Of a DNA stretch of 64,000 bases, positions 23,602-52,156 are shown piece after piece. Under the pieces are notes generated by a model. It did no database searches. It was not told where the DNA came from and worked only from the letters and a program-made list of their open reading frames with translations. Both the position numbers and the translations under genes were made by a program. The first letter of the stretch is position 1; every line of letters starts with the position of its first letter. Origin of the DNA: Naegleria gruberi (lineage: Eukaryota); assembly GCA_000004985.1 (NCBI GenBank), contig GG738868.1. One strand, 5' to 3'.

Positions 23602-24621
23602 TCAATAAACAATGGCATGTTTAGAAACAGTTTTGATTGTTTGTATTATTTGTTGGACCATAAAATTATGAAACGGTTCGGTGAGGCCATTCTGGTGCTC
23701 TTCTAGTAGTTCCAAATATTTTGTTCTGCATTTCTTTTGTACAGTAATATCAAATAGTCCATATCTATTAAGAATCATATTCATCAATAATCGAGCAGTT
23801 CTTCCATTCCCATCCAGAAATGGGTGAATATGAAGAAATTTACAATGTGCTAGAATGGAAAAGAGTGCAGGATGTAATATTCCATTATCAACTCTTTCTC
23901 TATTCAAATGGAACCACTCAAAGTATTGTTTCATGATTTGAGGTACCTCCTGAGGGTAGGGTCTAACAGTTTCAGAACCCTTGACACGAATTGGGATGAG
24001 TCTATAATTCGATTCCATAAAACCTTCAACATTGCAATAACATTTACTCTTCCCAAAAAGTTCGGTGTGAATATTAAGCAACTGATTTTCGTTAAAATGG
24101 CTTAGTGGTTGTTCCTCTAATTTAGAAATATATTGGAAAGCATGGTGGTGGAACAGTACTTCTAGACATTCTCTTGTGGTTGCTTCTTTTTGCAAAATCT
24201 GACTGAAATCTTGTTGTGATACACCCATTAGTTGTTCAGAAGAGTAAGTGCCGAATGAGTCAAAGAGGATTTCGCAGTCTTTTTGCGATAAAGTATTTCC
24301 CTCAATGCTTGTGCTGTGGTGAGTATTTGAAAGACGATAATTTGCCCAGATGGCATGGTTTTTAGAAAGCTGTGGTACAATACTTGTGGATAAAGAATCT
24401 AAGTAACCTAAATGATAGATATTTGCCAATGGTTGCTCATCTTTGAAGATATTAGTGGCTCCCAACCACATTTCTCCAGAAAATGCCTTTTTAACTTTTT
24501 CTTCTGGTGAGAGGGAGTTATAGATAGAGTAAATCTCCAGCAAACGTTCCTTTCGGCGTGCTTCTTTGCTCTCTATTATAGTATTAAAGGTTGCATTTAA
24601 AAGAAGTCGTGAGGTACGCAT
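23602..24621 (-). CDS. Fic-domain protein (Fido/AMPylase family), compact single-domain form
   Basis: Canonical Fic motif HPFLDGNGRTARLLMNMIL (HxFx[DE]GNGRxxR) at nt 23800..23826. An upstream inhibitory-helix-like motif STSIEG matching (S/T)xxxE(G/N) lies at about 24298..24315. 339 aa, no TM/TPR region, intronless. Confidence 0.8.
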   Translation of the reverse strand: MRTSRLLLNATFNTIIESKEARRKERLLEIYSIYNSLSPEEKVKKAFSGEMWLGATNIFKDEQPLANIYHLGYLDSLSTSIVPQLSKNHAIWANYRLSNTHHSTSIEGNTLSQKDCEILFDSFGTYSSEQLMGVSQQDFSQILQKEATTRECLEVLFHHHAFQYISKLEEQPLSHFNENQLLNIHTELFGKSKCYCNVEGFMESNYRLIPIRVKGSETVRPYPQEVPQIMKQYFEWFHLNRERVDNGILHPALFSILAHCKFLHIHPFLDGNGRTARLLMNMILNRYGLFDITVQKKCRTKYLELLEEHQNGLTEPFHNFMVQQIIQTIKTVSKHAIVY

Positions 24622-25003: not shown

Positions 25004-26977
25004 ATGGTTTCAGCATCAACAACGAGAGCAAAAAATCGATTGTTAAGAGACTTGAAGGAGATTGAGAATAATCCATTAGAAACTGTGTATGCCCAACCTT
25101 TGCCAAACGATATATTTCATTGGTATGCAACAGTGTTGGCTCCAAAGGAATCTCGTTACCATGGAATTATATTGAATTTGAGTATTGTTTTCCCAGAAAC
25201 GTATCCGAAAGATCCACCCAAGGTTGTTTGCTCGACTCGTATTCACCACCATCATGTCTTTCCAACTTGGATCTGTTTGGACATGTTGAGAACTCACTTT
25301 TCATCAGAGCCTTACAGTGGATGGAGTTCCAGTTATTCTTGTTTGTCCATCTTGTTGCAGTTGCAATCCTTCTTATTGGAGGAGGAAGAACAGCAAAAAG
25401 ATTACATTAAGGAAGATATTGCATCATCAAGAGACTATTCTAATCTCAAAATAGGACATAATCCGAGTAAGGGAAATATTTGGCCACGAGCACCACATTG
25501 GAATGTGGATGAAATTATCAAATCAGAATATGATCCCTCTTTACAAACTAAAAAAAAGGATGAAACTCAATATGAGAAGGGTGTTGTTGACATGGATTTG
25601 GAAGAATTTATTGAGAAGGAGACGAAGCAAGCGAGCTCTGTAATGTCAAAGAAGAAGAGAAAAAAGATGAACCGATTACAAAGATCCAAAAAGGAGGAAA
25701 ATGATGAGAATGTCCCTTCAAGCAGTACATCTACTATTACTCACCAAGCACCTGTTCAATTAAACAAGATTGAAAAGATGAAGGACCTTCCAAATGAAAC
25801 ATTGATTCATATTTTGAGTTATCTATCTCTCATTGACTTGAAGAGAGTGAGCAACTCTTCCAATTTTATGAAACTCTTGTGTGAAAACAAGAGTTTGACA
25901 ACTGAAAGAGAATTGATTTGTTTCCACTCCAAAGTAACCTACAAAGAAGATATTCTTGGAGTTGGATTAACATTTGAAACAAAGGATGGTGGGGTGGTTG
26001 CCTCCATTTCTACTCCATTAGATTTGGTATCAAAAAGTGCATTCTTTGATGAAAGTGTCAGAAAGAGTGTTTGGGGTGTTTTGACTCAACAATGGATTCC
26101 AATATATATTAATAAGGAACATGGAAACTTTGAGGCTCTAAAACAAGCCGTCAAGAGTATTGCCAAGTCATATCCATCACTATCTCAATCCAATAAGTTT
26201 GACAGTCCAGAAATCTATATTGATCTATTGTGTAAATTGATGAATACCATGGTGGTTGAGATTATGAAAGGTCAAACCCATGCCTCAATCAAGGCCCTGT
26301 ATGGATATATGTACTTTCACCGATGGCTGATTTACTTGGTTCAAAAGTTCCCATCTGCTCTCAAAGATATTGAGGAACAAGTCAAATCCTTTGTTACCAA
26401 TGAGAATTCACGTAAAAAGTCAAATTGTCCAAACATTGGCGAATTCCTTCCAAAACTTTCAGTTTTGGGTCCATCTGGTTTAACTTGGGATTATGTTAAA
26501 TCATCTGTTGTTGAGGAAACCTCTATTAGAAATCAACTTTGGGTCATCAAGCAGTTCCCTTCTCTATCTTCCACTAATGATAGTTCAGATGATTTCAGAT
26601 GCACCAATTCGTGGGTGGCAAACAATGTCTCTTGTAAGCTAATTATGTTCCATGTATTCTTCTTGAGAAATGTTGTAGAATCTTATACTGACCTTTCTCT
26701 TGAAGAATTTGGAAGATTGTACGATAATAACTTTGGTTGCCCACCAAAGACAAAGAATGGTGATTTTTTGGAAGATGTTCTTCAAAGGGAGGTATTCACA
26801 ATTCAAAATGTGTCATGTTTCCAACAATATTTCGAATACGTCGGTTTACCAAATATGAAAACAAGAACATCTGTTGCTCAATATTTGAGAAATTGTGTTA
26901 CCATTAGTGAAAAGAGAAGATATCATAATAATTTCAAAAATGGAAACAAGAACAACTTTTACAAAAATAAAAAGTAG
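25004..26977 (+). CDS. UBC (E2) core domain + F-box fusion protein with long uncharacterised C-terminal region
   Basis: The N-terminal ~120 aa is a UBC fold (RLLRDLKEIENNP..HWYATVL..Y..G.I.L.I.FP..YP..PPKV.C.T.I.HHHV....WICLDML..W.P..S..SILLQLQSFL) with the catalytic Cys at 25274..25276. The usual HPN is replaced by HHHH (25244..25255). An F-box-like motif LPNETLIHILSYLSLIDLKRVS lies at about 25796. The remaining ~390 aa is unassigned. Confidence 0.7.
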   Translation: MVSASTTRAKNRLLRDLKEIENNPLETVYAQPLPNDIFHWYATVLAPKESRYHGIILNLSIVFPETYPKDPPKVVCSTRIHHHHVFPTWICLDMLRTHFSSEPYSGWSSSYSCLSILLQLQSFLLEEEEQQKDYIKEDIASSRDYSNLKIGHNPSKGNIWPRAPHWNVDEIIKSEYDPSLQTKKKDETQYEKGVVDMDLEEFIEKETKQASSVMSKKKRKKMNRLQRSKKEENDENVPSSSTSTITHQAPVQLNKIEKMKDLPNETLIHILSYLSLIDLKRVSNSSNFMKLLCENKSLTTERELICFHSKVTYKEDILGVGLTFETKDGGVVASISTPLDLVSKSAFFDESVRKSVWGVLTQQWIPIYINKEHGNFEALKQAVKSIAKSYPSLSQSNKFDSPEIYIDLLCKLMNTMVVEIMKGQTHASIKALYGYMYFHRWLIYLVQKFPSALKDIEEQVKSFVTNENSRKKSNCPNIGEFLPKLSVLGPSGLTWDYVKSSVVEETSIRNQLWVIKQFPSLSSTNDSSDDFRCTNSWVANNVSCKLIMFHVFFLRNVVESYTDLSLEEFGRLYDNNFGCPPKTKNGDFLEDVLQREVFTIQNVSCFQQYFEYVGLPNMKTRTSVAQYLRNCVTISEKRRYHNNFKNGNKNNFYKNKK

Positions 26978-27178
26978 TTTTCCTCAATCAACTTAATCAG
27001 CTCTAAAGATTATACTGTTTAAGACTAGAGGAGCAAAGTTATGAAAATGGTGAGGGACAAAACCAAGTTGAAAGTCTTTGAAACAAGAGGAAATTTGACC
27101 TTAAACAAGAAAAGGAACCTCACTTTGTGTTGATGTTCTTTAAGCAAGCTTCCCAGTGTATATTATATTCGGAATTCT

Positions 27179-27712
27179 GTGAAGAAAAGAATAATTGAAT
27201 GGGAGGAAGGCGAGTTATTGTGTTATTTGAGAAAAAGAAAATTAATATTTAATTTTAATAGAGTCACACATTTACATGGTTTGAATGAAAAAGCTAACAG
27301 ATTCAGAAAAATAATGAATGAAAATGGCAAATCATACAAATTCATTTCTGGGTCTAGTGATTACGATAGATATGAAGAAGTAGAGAAAATGAGAGAAGAC
27401 ATCTATCGTAAAATCATCAATGCAGGGTTTGAGCCAGACACAAGATGGGTCACTAATTCGAAACTAATGACAGAAGAAGAAAAAATAGCTTCTCTACACA
27501 AGCATGCAGAAAAAACAGCCATAGCTCATGCCTTTGTTTTAAATCCAAACAGAAAGAAAATATTACTAACCATAAATCTACGAGTTTGCAATGATTGTCA
27601 TAACGCTGCTACGTATATTTCCAAAGAGATGAATGTTGAAATTATTGTAAGAGATGCAAATAGATACCATCATTTTGTTAATGGTAAATGTAGTTGTGGA
27701 AATTATTGGTAA
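27179..27712 (+). CDS. Stand-alone DYW-type cytidine deaminase domain protein (no PPR repeats detectable)
   Basis: The C-terminal 95 aa match the plant/protist DYW domain almost position for position: HAEKTAIAHAF.., NLRVCNDCHNAATYISKEMNVEIIVRDANRYHHFVNGKCSCGNYW. The zinc/catalytic residues HxE (27503..27511) and CxDCH (27587..27601) are present, and the protein ends in NYW instead of DYW. The upstream part (..GFEPDTRWVTNSKLMTEEEKIASL) resembles the E2/DYW-N region. The first in-frame ATG is at 27314, and the track start 27179 is GTG. There is no room for a PPR array between this gene and the upstream gene end (26977). Confidence 0.8.
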   Translation: MKKRIIEWEEGELLCYLRKRKLIFNFNRVTHLHGLNEKANRFRKIMNENGKSYKFISGSSDYDRYEEVEKMREDIYRKIINAGFEPDTRWVTNSKLMTEEEKIASLHKHAEKTAIAHAFVLNPNRKKILLTINLRVCNDCHNAATYISKEMNVEIIVRDANRYHHFVNGKCSCGNYW

Positions 27713-27813
27713 CACAACCCCCATGATACCTCAGCATGATATTACTCCTTGAACATCTAATAATACTAATATTTCTAATAATTACAAATTTTATTAAGGT
27801 TTATTTGGGAAAA

Positions 27814-28752
27814 TTACAAACTACCAATAAGTGTTCCTAAAGCAAAACAAACCGCTGCACATACAGAAGTAATTGCCAATTCATGATTGATATCATCGTA
27901 TAATCGCCTTTCATTTGGTGAAATCAATGTTTCACATTTGAAAACTCTTCTTTCTGGATCAACCTTTCCAATAAGTATAACCTGATCATCCTTATTCAAA
28001 ACTTTTTGAATAATTTGTGCATCAAACAATGCAAACAGCTTTATAATGGGTTGGAATTTAATATTGCTGTCTCGATTCATTCTCATTACTGTTTCAATAT
28101 GACCGTTATAGTCTCTAATATTTTCAGAGTATTCTTTGGTTGGTCCCATGACTATTTTGCAATTGGGTAAGAGTTCAACCTTTAAACTTTCAGTTAAATC
28201 ATTATTAGAATCGAACCATTCTTTAGATGGAATGCCAAAAGCAAATTTCACCTCCAGATCACTACTATAACATCTCAATCGCTCTCTTCTCCTGCTTTTA
28301 ACAAACAAGATCTTTCCACTATCTTTTGAGATTTCATAAATCAAAACTGGTTCTTGACTTTCGATTGAATCATCCAATTTCAGCACCTTGTTTGAATTAA
28401 TCTTTCCAACATTTTTACACAATTTACCATCTGTTAAATTTCCTTCCTCAATAATGTTCGAATGTTCAAGTTGATCATATTGAGTATAATACAATGATCC
28501 GTCAAGTACACACAGAGCCAATCCCATTAATATTAAAATAATTCTAGCTTGTGAAGATGAGGATTTTCTTTTTTCCTCATCATTTTGATTGTTATTTGGA
28601 TTATTATTTACAATTGTTGAATAATGTAGCAATTGTTGTTGATGTGTGAAAATTGTCTTGTTTAATCTATTACGAATGCAGTATGAATCCAATAACCATG
28701 GTTGTCTATTGCTCATCATTATGGAGGGTGATAAATTCTTACTGGTTTGCAA
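27814..28752 (-). CDS. Hypothetical membrane protein (N-terminal region TM + C-terminal TM)
   Basis: 312 aa. Hydrophobic segments ARIILILMGLALCVL and AITSVCAAVCFALGTLIGSL. No family assignment. Confidence 0.35.
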   Translation of the reverse strand: MQTSKNLSPSIMMSNRQPWLLDSYCIRNRLNKTIFTHQQQLLHYSTIVNNNPNNNQNDEEKRKSSSSQARIILILMGLALCVLDGSLYYTQYDQLEHSNIIEEGNLTDGKLCKNVGKINSNKVLKLDDSIESQEPVLIYEISKDSGKILFVKSRRRERLRCYSSDLEVKFAFGIPSKEWFDSNNDLTESLKVELLPNCKIVMGPTKEYSENIRDYNGHIETVMRMNRDSNIKFQPIIKLFALFDAQIIQKVLNKDDQVILIGKVDPERRVFKCETLISPNERRLYDDINHELAITSVCAAVCFALGTLIGSL

Positions 28753-47359: not shown

Positions 47360-47391
47360 CAAAATATTTAAAGTTAAGCGAAGAGAAAAAA

Positions 47392-47509
47392 GACTACAGC
47401 ACCACAGGTTCCCAAGTTGTCTCCAACCTCAGTACTGATGTGGCTCGACGATGCTTAACTTCTCAAATCGGACGGGATGAGGTGCATTCATCGTGATATG
47501 GCCGTAGCC
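47392..47509 (-). rRNA. 5S: 5S ribosomal RNA gene
   Basis: The minus-strand sequence GGCTACGGCCATATCACGATGAATGCACCTCATCCCGTCCGATTTGAGAAGTTAAGCATCGTCGAGCCACATCAGTACTGAGGTTGGAGACAACTTGGGAACCTGTGGTGCTGTAGTC aligns along its length with eukaryotic 5S rRNA. Helix I ends pair (GGCTACGGCC / GCTGTAGTC). The loop C and loop E regions are conserved (CCGATCTCGTCTGATCTCGGAAGCTAAGCAGGGTCGGGCC analogue). A T6 Pol III terminator follows (47386..47391). Confidence 0.85.
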
Positions 47510-50317: not shown

Positions 50318-52156
50318 TCAAAAAAGGAAATTGGCTCCAAAATATTCATAATCTATTCTTTTTTGAAATATCTCCTTATTGAACCGAAAGCATTGTCCTG
50401 TTTGAACTGCTACCAATTCCTCAATTTCATCATAGTACTGATAGCCAATAAACCCAATTGTGTCATGCAAAGTTGACAAATTTTGGCATGCAGCCTCAAT
50501 AATAAGCTCTCTATCCATTATGTTTGAGTAAAAAATACTTCTACCGAACTGTCTGATAGCATCAAGAACTACTTCCCTATTGCTTTTCAATTCCATTGGA
50601 GCAAATTCTAATACTCCTCCAAAAACTTTAATAGCCCGTTTGAAAAATTCAATATTACTGGAAGAAATAGATAAAAATGGTAGGTAATAAAGCGCTTTTT
50701 CTTTGTATAATCTTAACCCTTCAATCATAGCCTCTTCTTTAAATGGAGCTTCACATGCATGTATTAGTGTTTCGATATCTTTTTTCAAACATTCCATACA
50801 AATAGAAAACTCAGCACCAATTTGTGAAAGTAAAATCTTCTGGAAATCTCCTCTGAAGTATGTGAACAGTGTTTTAGATCCTGTAAAGTTCATATTCTTA
50901 AGAGCTATCATCATTATATCTGTATCCTTCATTAACGAATAAGGAAGATATTGGATTAACAGCCCATTATGCCGTACAATTTGAATAGCTAGTTCTCTAT
51001 TTTCCAACAAACCAAGATCACGTGCAACCTCTACTACAAACGCATATGGATTTTTAAGGGTTTCTAGAATAATCTCCCTATCGTTATGGAGATGCTCTGC
51101 TGCATATTGAAAAGCAAATGAATTGCTCCTCACTGCCATCAATACCAATTCTCTATCGTTCTTATATTCATTGCATAGAAAATTTAATATTGATCCATTT
51201 GCGCAAAGACCCTCTCTCACTATTTCCTTATCGGTTAAGAATATCTTATTGGCATATCTCAGAGCCAATCCGTTATTCCTAATTGAGGTCAATACAATTT
51301 CCCTATCCGATTTAAATGTCTCACTTACTTGTTCCAAAGCAACTCCATGTTTTTCCACAACTTTTAACACTACATCCCTATCTTCAATCAAATTGTTAGG
51401 AATAGAGAATGAACTTCCAAAATCTGTCCTCCTATCAATGGCTTCCAAAAATACCTCCTTATAAATATAGTTGTTACACATTAAATCCAAAACTGATGGA
51501 TTTTGCTGAACTGCCTCTCTCACAATATCTCTACACGAACGATGATTTGTAAATATTTCAAGAATTAATCCATTTTGTTTCACCATGAACATAATATCAT
51601 CCGATGAAAACCCGTATTCATCTGTAAACTGTCTATATTCTTCATAATGCATTGCTAAAAACTTTAATCCAACATCTCTCCTTTCCCCATTCAATAAATC
51701 ACTCAATATTGAACCTCTATTAAACCTTGAACAATTTTTCAAGTTATAATTCGCAAAATCCAAAATTATTTCCTCATCCTTCAATAATTCCTCATCAATC
51801 ATGTCTGTTATATGCAGAATTGGTTTATATGGTGTAATTAGAACATTAGCCTTCCTCAGAAAATTTGAAACATATTTCTTGTCTTTTCTAAACTCAATCG
51901 GAATGTAATTATAACAATTTAAGGCTTCTTCTCTCCGTCTACTCCACAAAGCCTTTCCCTTCTGTTGGCATTCAAATTTCTTGATCATCAACTTTTGATA
52001 GTCGTGATGAGGAATTAAATCAATTAATTGAATCGAAACCAATTCTTCATCTTCTTCATCATCATAATGATGGAAATATTTATTTTCTTTGGCGGGAAAT
52101 TCTGAATCAAAATCTCTATCTAGCACTCGTTTCATTTTTTTTATAATTAATTGCAA
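50318..52156 (-). CDS. DUF4116-type helical repeat protein
   Basis: 612-aa ORF with at least 8 tandem ~36-aa repeats of the form DREIVLTSIRNNGLALRYANKIFLTDKEIVREGLCANGSILNFL, NDRELVLMAVRSNSFAFQYAAEHLHNDREIILE, SNREVVLDAIRQFGRS.. This is the pattern of the DUF4116 repeat family. Single exon. Confidence 0.6.
   Translation of the reverse strand: MQLIIKKMKRVLDRDFDSEFPAKENKYFHHYDDEEDEELVSIQLIDLIPHHDYQKLMIKKFECQQKGKALWSRRREEALNCYNYIPIEFRKDKKYVSNFLRKANVLITPYKPILHITDMIDEELLKDEEIILDFANYNLKNCSRFNRGSILSDLLNGERRDVGLKFLAMHYEEYRQFTDEYGFSSDDIMFMVKQNGLILEIFTNHRSCRDIVREAVQQNPSVLDLMCNNYIYKEVFLEAIDRRTDFGSSFSIPNNLIEDRDVVLKVVEKHGVALEQVSETFKSDREIVLTSIRNNGLALRYANKIFLTDKEIVREGLCANGSILNFLCNEYKNDRELVLMAVRSNSFAFQYAAEHLHNDREIILETLKNPYAFVVEVARDLGLLENRELAIQIVRHNGLLIQYLPYSLMKDTDIMMIALKNMNFTGSKTLFTYFRGDFQKILLSQIGAEFSICMECLKKDIETLIHACEAPFKEEAMIEGLRLYKEKALYYLPFLSISSSNIEFFKRAIKVFGGVLEFAPMELKSNREVVLDAIRQFGRSIFYSNIMDRELIIEAACQNLSTLHDTIGFIGYQYYDEIEELVAVQTGQCFRFNKEIFQKRIDYEYFGANFLF

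What the first reader, a model, noticed from the sequence alone, without database searches (positions are those of the whole stretch)
27179..27712. Stand-alone DYW-type cytidine deaminase domain gene with no PPR array
The C-terminal 95 residues are an almost textbook DYW domain: HAE (the HxE catalytic glutamate), NLRVCNDCH (CxDCH zinc site) and a terminal CSCGNYW. DYW domains normally sit at the end of long PPR arrays in plant organelle C-to-U editing factors. Outside land plants they are known from only a few protist lineages (established knowledge). Here the gene is compact, at most 177 codons, and starts about 200 bp after the stop of the upstream same-strand gene, so there is no space for PPR repeats. 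This would make it a trans-acting deaminase module like Arabidopsis DYW1. The terminal Asp to Asn change (NYW) is also uncommon. Its position right after an E2+F-box fusion gene on the same strand could be coincidence or could reflect co-transcription.
Basis: partly seen in the sequence, partly recalled or inferred. Interest (0 to 1): 0.7.

Follow-up and report, generated by a model that had tools for sequence, protein, structure and literature searches.

The report
Truncated DYW deaminase gene in Naegleria
The amoeba Naegleria gruberi carries a cut-down copy of one of its own plant-type RNA-editing genes that keeps only the catalytic deaminase part, much like Arabidopsis DYW1, but whether it still works is untested.

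Summary
The window is Naegleria gruberi nuclear DNA, and 27314..27712 is the public gene model XP_002677116.1 (132 aa). Its C-terminal 95 residues match Pfam DYW_deaminase over the whole model (E=1.2e-33), with both zinc sites intact. No PPR sequence exists upstream or anywhere else in the 64 kb.

New here:
- The gene is a truncated paralogue of N. gruberi's own PPR-E-DYW family. Its sister is XP_002678365, followed by XP_002682650, each at 62% identity.
- Homology starts inside the E2 motif, upstream of the annotated Met.
- A 14-15-residue in-frame deletion removes the PG box (strand beta1). The AlphaFold model therefore has a three-stranded sheet and fits the DYW1 crystal structure best.
- The catalytic core evolves no faster than in the full-length sisters.

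This is the anatomy that defines plant DYW1-like trans-acting deaminases, and it arose independently. Expression, localisation and a PPR partner could not be tested, and a recently truncated relic remains a serious rival. DYW proteins in Naegleria have been known since 2010, so the novelty is modest: a new member of a known kind.

The parts
27314..27712 (+). Publicly annotated CDS (132 aa plus TAA): XP_002677116.1 / EFC44372.1 / NAEGRDRAFT_33704 / UniProt D2VFJ2
   Evidence: 100% identical 132-aa N. gruberi protein. The start Met aligns with the conserved Met of the ancestral E2 motif.
27134..27313 (+). In-frame open extension upstream of the annotated Met: 60 codons, no stop and no ATG
   Evidence: Translation. 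P(no stop in 60 codons) is about 0.005. Codon-usage score is 0.04 in frame against -0.70 and -0.92 in the other two frames.
27239..27322 (+). Remnant of the E2 motif. The second helix HGLNEKAN is 8/8 identical to paralogue XP_002682650. The first helix is degenerate or replaced.
   Evidence: tblastn with P0004 residues 645-822 aligns from 27239. Alignments. No Pfam E_motif hit. The model shows low-confidence helices at residues 25-32 and 36-49.
27320..27331 (+). Site of the in-frame 14-15-codon deletion that removed the PG box (K-K-x-P-G-x-x-x-x-E, strand beta1)
   Evidence: Family alignments. The control model of sister P0171 has beta1 at 252-257 and beta2 at 260-265. The window model has neither.
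27425..27709 (+). DYW_deaminase core (Pfam PF14432, residues 83-177 of the 177-aa ORF)
   Evidence: E=1.2e-33, model positions 1-93 of 93. pLDDT above 93. PDB sequence hits 9kfx, 7o4e and 7w86.
27503..27511 (+). HAE: catalytic His (zinc 1) and Glu of the HxE motif
   Evidence: Aligned with HSE of the family.
27587..27601 (+). CNDCH: the two Cys of zinc site 1 and a His of zinc site 2
   Evidence: Residue roles as described for OTP86 in PMC7611903.
27665..27709 (+). YHHF...CSCGNYW: remainder of the second zinc site and the terminal N-Y-W
   Evidence: In 5 of the 6 NYW proteins among the 150 nearest relatives, including this one, the Lys four residues after CxxCH is also absent. P0171 keeps Asp while lacking that Lys.
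27041..27049 (+). Candidate first exon ATGAAAATG, in frame with the DYW ORF (hypothetical)
   Evidence: Sequence. Enumeration of in-frame ATG, donor and acceptor combinations. No transcript evidence.
27050..27148 (+). Candidate 99-nt intron, GTGAGG...TTCTTTAAGCAAG. It contains the only in-frame stop (TGA 27131-27133) between ATG 27041 and the DYW ORF (hypothetical).
   Evidence: There is one stop in 91 codons where 7.7 are expected (P about 0.004).

Best explanation
This is a nuclear gene of Naegleria gruberi, derived from one of the amoeba's own PPR-E-DYW mitochondrial editing-factor genes by loss of everything upstream of the E2 motif.

What remains is half an E2 motif and the catalytic two-thirds of the DYW cytidine deaminase. 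Both zinc sites are intact. The PPR tract, the E1 motif and the PG box (strand beta1, plus the Lys-rich linker that contacts RNA) are gone.

The protein has no RNA-recognition tract and an incomplete beta-sheet and substrate pocket, so it most likely cannot edit on its own. The best-supported mechanism is the one known for Arabidopsis DYW1. In that model a PPR protein recruits the deaminase subunit in trans. The partner binds the target RNA and supplies the missing E2/PG-box elements, and together they carry out C-to-U editing in the mitochondrion.

Shown: the domain, the truncated anatomy, the origin within the Naegleria family, and conservation of the catalytic core.

Inferred: expression, the true 5' end (probably upstream of the annotated Met), mitochondrial targeting, the partner and the activity.
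For: - Identity and domain.
- No PPR in 64 kb.
- Origin: an NJ tree places it sister to the full-length N. gruberi paralogue P0171, with P0004 next.
- Constraint on branch length: terminal branch lengths over the DYW region are 0.181 for this gene against 0.156 and 0.149 for P0171 and P0004.
- Constraint on rate: a Tajima test of this gene against P0171, with P0004 as outgroup, gives 16 vs 16 unique changes.
- Constraint on conserved columns: lineage-specific changes hit 1 of 32 family-conserved columns here (a Y>F change), against 4 of 35 in P0171 and 3 of 34 in P0004.
- Pfam scores are 115 bits here against 118 and 128 for the two sisters.
- All zinc ligands, the catalytic Glu and the terminal Trp are kept.
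- The one deletion is in frame and removes exactly the PG box.
- The AlphaFold model (pLDDT above 93 in the core) has three strands where the control model of P0171 has five. Its best fit is the DYW1 crystal 7w86, TM 0.88 and rmsd 1.4 A, against 0.72-0.75 and 3.5-4.9 A for OTP86.
- Published definition of DYW1-like proteins: few or no PPR motifs, no PG box, poorly conserved E2. The E2 motif and PG box of CRR4 complete the DYW1 pocket.
- The frame is open 60 codons upstream of the annotated Met (P about 0.005). It has only one stop back to an ATG whose peptide is presequence-like, with 9 K/R against 2 D/E.
Against: - There is no transcript evidence of any kind (searches found nothing).
- No orthologue was found in any other organism or metagenome. 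The best non-paralogue hits are 50-55% identical and are ordinary PPR-E-DYW genes.
- No PPR-E/E+ partner could be sought in N. gruberi with these tools.
- All PPR-DYW paralogues inspected keep their own intact HxE/CxxC motifs, so a need for a trans deaminase is not evident.
- Only two editing sites are reported for N. gruberi against 10-11 DYW proteins (PMC4202320).
- If the truncation is recent, the conserved core says nothing about function of the truncated form.
- No upstream in-frame ATG exists without invoking an unverified intron, and the 132-aa product has an acidic, non-presequence N-terminus.
Confidence: 0.45

Rival explanations
1. It is a non-functional relic. A PPR-E-DYW paralogue recently lost its 5' two kilobases through deletion or rearrangement. 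What remains is an unexpressed or useless fragment that an automatic gene caller annotated from the first available ATG.
For: - The annotated Met is simply the conserved internal Met of the ancestral E2 motif.
- There is an in-frame TGA at 27131-27133 between the only upstream ATG and the ORF.
- The PG box, which forms the first two strands of the deaminase fold (PMC7611903), is deleted.
- No Pfam E-motif signal remains.
- The gene is a singleton with no orthologue found.
- Over the whole alignment including E2, the branch is 1.5- to 4-fold accelerated relative to P0004.
Against: - Within the DYW region the gene has fewer lineage-specific changes than either full-length sister, and only one conservative change at a conserved column.
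- Its terminal branch is only 16% longer than the sister's.
- 192 codons are free of stops and frameshifts in 33% GC DNA despite 38% amino-acid divergence, and the only indel is in frame.
- Codon usage is still gene-like, 0.20 against 0.33 +/- 0.15 for real ORFs.
- The relic reading is tenable only if the truncation is very recent.
Confidence: 0.35
2. It is functional but not a DYW1-style editing subunit. It could be a regulator or competitor that binds the PPR/E surfaces of full-length factors. It could also be a deaminase, or the ribonuclease activity reported for DYW domains, acting on other substrates, possibly outside mitochondria.
For: - The core is conserved.
- The annotated 132-aa product has no presequence-like N-terminus.
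- The excess of DYW proteins over editing sites in Naegleria has led authors to suggest other roles (PMC4202320).
- A ribonuclease activity has been linked to DYW1 in vitro (PMC10318007, title and abstract).
Against: No specific evidence supports this. Every catalytic and zinc residue needed for deamination is kept, which a purely structural competitor would not require.
Confidence: 0.12
3. It is the last exon of a normal full-length PPR-DYW gene whose PPR exons lie elsewhere, or the scaffold is mis-assembled at about 27240.
For: Homology to PPR-E-DYW proteins breaks off abruptly near 27240-27270. The public model is clearly 5'-incomplete relative to the open frame.
Against: - A complete 657-codon same-strand gene ends 64 nt before the only upstream ATG.
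- There is no PPR similarity on either strand in 64 kb.
- The sequence has no gap in the region.
- The PG-box deletion is internal to the exon and independent of any junction.
Confidence: 0.03
4. The DYW ORF is co-transcribed with, or alternatively spliced onto, the upstream E2 + F-box gene.
For: The two lie on the same strand, and 64-336 nt separate the E2/F-box stop from the candidate DYW starts.
Against: - The upstream ORF ends in a normal low-complexity tail with a TAG stop, and two further in-frame stops precede ATG 27041.
- Tight spacing is the norm across this window.
- No evidence of polycistrons or of such a fusion appeared in any homologue.
Confidence: 0.02

Closest known systems
Arabidopsis DYW1 and the DYW1-like (atypical DYW) proteins of land plants (structure 7w86)
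   Same: - It has no PPR tract, no PG box, only a poorly conserved partial E2 region, and an intact HxE...CxxC deaminase core with the second zinc site.
- The predicted fold superposes on 7w86 with TM 0.88 and rmsd 1.4 A.
   Different: - It is not a member of that clade. It nests inside the N. gruberi PPR-E-DYW paralogues and scores lower against DYW1 (81.6 bits) than against canonical DYW domains (97-103 bits).
- It ends in NYW.
- No interacting E+ protein is known, and no functional data exist.
Naegleria gruberi PPR-E-DYW family (Knoop and Rudinger 2010), e.g. XP_002678365.1 (P0171) and XP_002682650.1 (P0004)
   Same: - It comes from the same genome and the same subclade, at 62% identity over 165 aligned residues to each.
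- It shares the subclade traits HAEK, CNDCH and loss of the Lys four residues after CxxCH.
   Different: - Those proteins carry PPR arrays, a Pfam E motif (E=1e-14 to 1e-16) and a PG box.
- This gene has none of the three.
Canonical plant DYW domain (OTP86, 7o4e/7o4f; synthetic PPR-DYW, 9kfx)
   Same: It has the same catalytic signature and the same two zinc sites. Sequence E-values are 1e-26 to 1e-28.
   Different: - Canonical domains have five beta-strands, and the PG box forms the first two (PMC7611903; PMC13324415).
- Here beta1 is deleted and beta2 is not formed in the model.

Membership tests
DYW deaminase domain (Pfam PF14432) | Profile match above the curated cut-off over the whole model | tested here: met
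   115.2 bits against a cut-off of 24, E=1.2e-33, model positions 1-93 of 93.
DYW deaminase domain (Pfam PF14432) | HxE(x)nCxxC catalytic zinc signature | tested here: met
   H109-A-E111 and C137-N-D-C140, with n=25.
DYW deaminase domain (Pfam PF14432) | Second zinc site (two His plus a C-terminal CxC) and the terminal Trp | tested here: met
   H141, H164/H165, C171-S-C173 and W177 are present. The terminal tripeptide is NYW rather than DYW.
DYW deaminase domain (full ~136-aa definition, Cheng 2016 / Takenaka 2021) | N-terminal PG box forming strands beta1-beta2 of a five-stranded deaminase sheet | tested here: not met
   A 14-15-residue deletion covers K-K-x-P-G-x-x-x-x-E. The model has three strands against five in the control model of P0171.
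PLS-class PPR-E-DYW RNA editing factor | Tract of PPR (P-L-S) motifs | tested here: not met
   No Pfam PPR hit at E<=10. No tblastn match to the PPR parts of seven family members anywhere in the window.
PLS-class PPR-E-DYW RNA editing factor | E1 and E2 motifs (Pfam PF20431) | tested here: not met
   No PF20431 hit. Only the second E2 helix is recognisable, by alignment to paralogues.
DYW1-like atypical DYW proteins (architecture) | Very few or no PPR motifs, no PG box, non-conserved E2, intact deaminase core | tested here: met
   See the rows above. The definition is taken from PMC7076377 and PMC11897456.
DYW1-like atypical DYW proteins (clade membership) | Descent from the land-plant DYW1/DYW2/MEF8 clade | tested here: not met
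   The NJ tree nests it within N. gruberi paralogues. Plant DYW1-like hits with the motif REAYEK..ELH..I..AGYVPDTRFVLHDID rank far lower.
DYW1-like atypical DYW proteins (function) | Physical interaction with a PPR-E/E+ protein that supplies RNA recognition and the PG box, and a requirement for editing at a defined site | not testable with these tools
   The N. gruberi genome and proteome could not be searched as such. Two profile or sequence searches for E+-type proteins returned plant sequences or nothing.

The most novel reading that the evidence does not exclude
A split, trans-acting DYW editosome evolved independently outside land plants. This PG-box-less, PPR-less deaminase would be imported into Naegleria mitochondria and completed by the E2/PG-box region of a PPR protein that has no active deaminase of its own. 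That would mirror CRR4-DYW1 by convergence.
Probability: 0.3. Interest if true: 0.6.

Novelty: new member of a known kind. Interest (0 to 1): 0.38.

Why it matters
Plant organelle editing often splits RNA recognition (PPR-E+) from catalysis (DYW1-like proteins). It is not known whether the DYW systems of protists, which may have been acquired by ancient horizontal transfer, ever did the same.

A Naegleria DYW module that has lost exactly the parts DYW1 lacks, yet keeps a conserved catalytic core, gives a concrete and easily cloned candidate for testing two questions. One is whether 'active-site complementation' is a general property of DYW deaminases. The other is why Naegleria has far more DYW genes than known editing sites.

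If the gene is a relic, it only documents birth-and-death turnover in a known gene family.

Tried and rejected
- Transcript or other-assembly evidence: exact look-ups of the 132-aa and 177-aa products and of paralogue P0004 found nothing on record.
- Partner search: a profile of the PPR-E1-E2-PG-box region returned almost only plant proteins and one ordinary N. gruberi PPR-E-DYW. A single-sequence query returned two unrelated hits.
- Orthologue search in JGI metagenomes: only relatives at 37-50% identity were found.
- Selenocysteine or read-through reading of TGA 27131: no SECIS or any significant RNA family lies in 26800-28200.
- Literature: no held paper cites the accession, locus tag or UniProt id. 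Knoop and Rudinger 2010 and Schallenberg-Rudinger 2013 are not held. I could not establish whether this truncated member is among the '10-11' published Naegleria DYW genes.
- NYW as a sign of decay: rejected, because it is a subfamily trait that co-varies with loss of the partner Lys.
- K-to-I in 'KNLRVC' as a lesion: rejected, because the position also varies in full-length Naegleria paralogues (S, N, T).
- Splice-site enumeration gave many formally possible in-frame introns. Only GTGAGG(27050)...AG(27148) has a consensus-like donor and a pyrimidine-rich acceptor, and it remains a hypothesis.

Full report
**What is in the sequence.** The window is AT-rich (about 33% GC), densely packed eukaryotic DNA. 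The ORF 27179..27712 (+) exists as described. Pfam PF14432 (DYW_deaminase) matches residues 83-177 across the whole 93-position model, at E=1.2e-33 and 115 bits against a cut-off of 24. HAE, CNDCH, HH, CSC and the terminal NYW are all present. The upstream same-strand ORF 25004..26977 is indeed a UQ_con plus F-box protein.

The product from the first ATG (27314) is 100% identical to a 132-aa 'predicted protein' of Naegleria gruberi. Its identifiers are XP_002677116.1, EFC44372.1, NAEGRDRAFT_33704 and D2VFJ2. So the source is the organism in which non-plant DYW proteins were first reported (PMC4202320).

**Boundaries.** The GTG 'start' at 27179 is only an artefact of the bacterial ORF rule. The frame is open from 27134, giving 192 codons, and the first ATG is at 27314. 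That Met aligns with the conserved Met in the second helix of the ancestral E2 motif. It therefore looks like the first ATG a gene caller could use, rather than a proven start.

Upstream of it the frame stays open for 60 codons (P about 0.005 from the local off-frame stop frequency). From an in-frame ATG at 27041 there is a single stop (TGA 27131-33) in 91 codons, where 7.7 are expected (P about 0.004). The other two frames carry 12 and 8 stops.

A consensus-like donor follows ATGAAAATG (GTGAGG at 27050). A pyrimidine-rich acceptor ends at 27148. Together they would remove the TGA in a 99-nt intron and give a 190-aa product. This is a hypothesis only, because no transcript data could be retrieved.

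**No PPR tract.**
- Pfam finds neither PPR nor E motif in the upstream translations, even at E<=10.
- tblastn with seven PPR-DYW proteins matches only 27239..27709 in the whole 64 kb.
- The neighbouring ORFs encode unrelated proteins.

**Where it came from.** An exhaustive HMMER search gave as nearest relative the 822-aa N. gruberi PPR-E-DYW protein XP_002682650.1 (P0004, E=2e-57). The match starts 17 residues upstream of the annotated Met. A second paralogue, XP_002678365.1 (P0171, 386 aa, PPR plus E motif plus DYW), is equally close. Each is 62% identical over 165 aligned residues. An NJ tree of the DYW region gives ((window, P0171), P0004), with two metagenomic sequences as the next clade. 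Those metagenomic relatives are ordinary long PPR-E-DYW genes.

The window gene is thus a truncated member of Naegleria's own family. It is not a relative of the plant DYW1 clade.

**What is missing.** Family alignments show that homology begins inside E2. The second helix HGLNEKAN is 8/8 identical to P0004, while the first helix is degenerate or replaced. An in-frame deletion of 14-15 residues then removes the PG-box core, RGIKKLPGIVYHE in P0004.

[quoted passage not shown] The Lys in the E2-DYW linker contacts the RNA backbone (PMC13324415).

The AlphaFold2 model of the 177-aa ORF has mean pLDDT 84, and above 93 from residue 60 onward. It shows three long strands and no beta1 or beta2. A control model of the full-length sister P0171 (pLDDT 93) shows beta1 at 252-257 and beta2 at 260-265, followed by the same elements. 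Foldseek ranks the DYW1 crystal structure 7w86 as the closest domain-level fit (TM 0.88, rmsd 1.4 A). It fits better than OTP86 (TM 0.72-0.75, rmsd 3.5-4.9 A). Part of that preference simply reflects the shorter DYW1 construct.

**Is it decaying?** Within the 130 columns after the annotated Met, I counted lineage-specific changes at columns where the other two paralogues agree.

| Gene | Changes at family-conserved columns | Changes at variable columns |
|---|---|---|
| Window gene | 1 of 32 (a Y>F change) | 5 of 51 |
| P0171 | 4 of 35 | 8 of 54 |
| P0004 | 3 of 34 | 13 of 59 |

Other measures agree:
- Terminal branch lengths are 0.181, 0.156 and 0.149.
- Tajima's test against the sister gives 16 vs 16 unique changes.
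- Pfam bit scores are 115, 118 and 128.
- In-frame codon usage is 0.20, within one standard deviation of real ORFs in the window (0.33 +/- 0.15) and far from off-frame values (-0.78).

The acceleration seen when E2 is included lies upstream of the deletion. So the catalytic core has been under purifying selection for most of the time since duplication. What cannot be dated is the truncation itself. If it is recent, this conservation was earned while the gene was still full length.

**NYW.** Among the 150 nearest relatives the terminal tripeptide is DYW in 96, DFW in 14, NYW in 6 and GYW in 4. In 5 of the 6 NYW proteins that could be scored, the Lys four residues after CxxCH is also absent (A, C or T). 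In OTP86 that Lys hydrogen-bonds to the Asp (PMC7611903). The paralogue P0171 keeps Asp while lacking the Lys, so the co-variation is not perfect. The change is a co-varying subfamily trait, also seen in P0002 and P0003, and not a lesion.

**Mechanism.** The gene matches, point for point, the published definition of DYW1-like proteins: very few or no PPR motifs, no PG box, poorly conserved E2 and an intact deaminase (PMC7076377; PMC11897456). In plants such proteins are recruited in trans by PPR-E+ proteins. The E2 motif and PG box of CRR4 complete the DYW1 substrate pocket.

I therefore favour a DYW1-style trans-acting deaminase subunit for mitochondrial C-to-U editing, arisen by convergence (confidence 0.45). 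The main rival is a recently truncated, non-functional relic (0.35). Lesser rivals are a non-editing function (0.12), a mis-assembled or mis-annotated piece of a full-length gene (0.03), and coupling to the E2/F-box gene (0.02).

**Limits.**
- No transcript, orthologue or partner could be found or sought properly.
- The two key primary papers on Naegleria DYW proteins are not in the library. No held paper cites this accession. I cannot say whether this member has been discussed before.

**Verdict.** The DYW family in Naegleria and the stand-alone DYW architecture in plants are both known. I rate it a new member of a known kind, with interest 0.38.

Noticed in passing
window 25004..26977 (+): A single 657-codon ORF fuses a ubiquitin-conjugating (UQ_con, E=9.4e-21, catalytic Cys context ICLDML kept) domain to an F-box (E=2.8e-6), followed by about 350 residues with no Pfam match. 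An E2 enzyme carrying an SCF-adaptor motif is an unusual architecture.
   Followed up: partly
window 23602..24621 (-): A 339-aa ORF carries a Fic/DOC (AMPylation-type) domain, E=3.6e-16, in a eukaryotic nuclear genome.
   Followed up: no
window 47391..47509 (-): A complete 5S rRNA gene (Rfam RF00001, 105 bits, E=4e-22) sits among protein-coding genes.
   Followed up: no
window 27041..27313 (+): The DYW reading frame has one stop (TGA 27131-33) in 91 codons where about 7.7 are expected. The peptide from ATG 27041 (MKMVRDKTKLKVFETRGNLTLNKKRNLTLC) is presequence-like, with 9 K/R against 2 D/E. This could be an intron, a recent nonsense mutation, a sequencing error or chance.
   Followed up: partly
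L003 1770..3820 and L004 1142..3819 (metagenome contigs ERZ27315067 / JGI 3300002220): The nearest non-Naegleria relative is a long PPR array followed by E2-DYW, split by a one-base frameshift in an A-run (TTTGAAAATTAAGATC). Its DYW domain (P0003) has YPE in place of HxE, so it may be catalytically dead, which is the sort of protein that would need a trans deaminase.
   Followed up: partly
P0001, P0002, P0003, P0004 and 150 nearest homologues: The terminal Asp of DYW and the Lys four residues after CxxCH co-vary: K with D in 122 cases, and non-K with N in 8. This matches the D958-K928 hydrogen bond described for OTP86.
   Followed up: partly
window 50318..52156 (-): A 612-aa ORF consists largely of DUF4116 repeats (E=9e-69, six stretches).
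   Followed up: no
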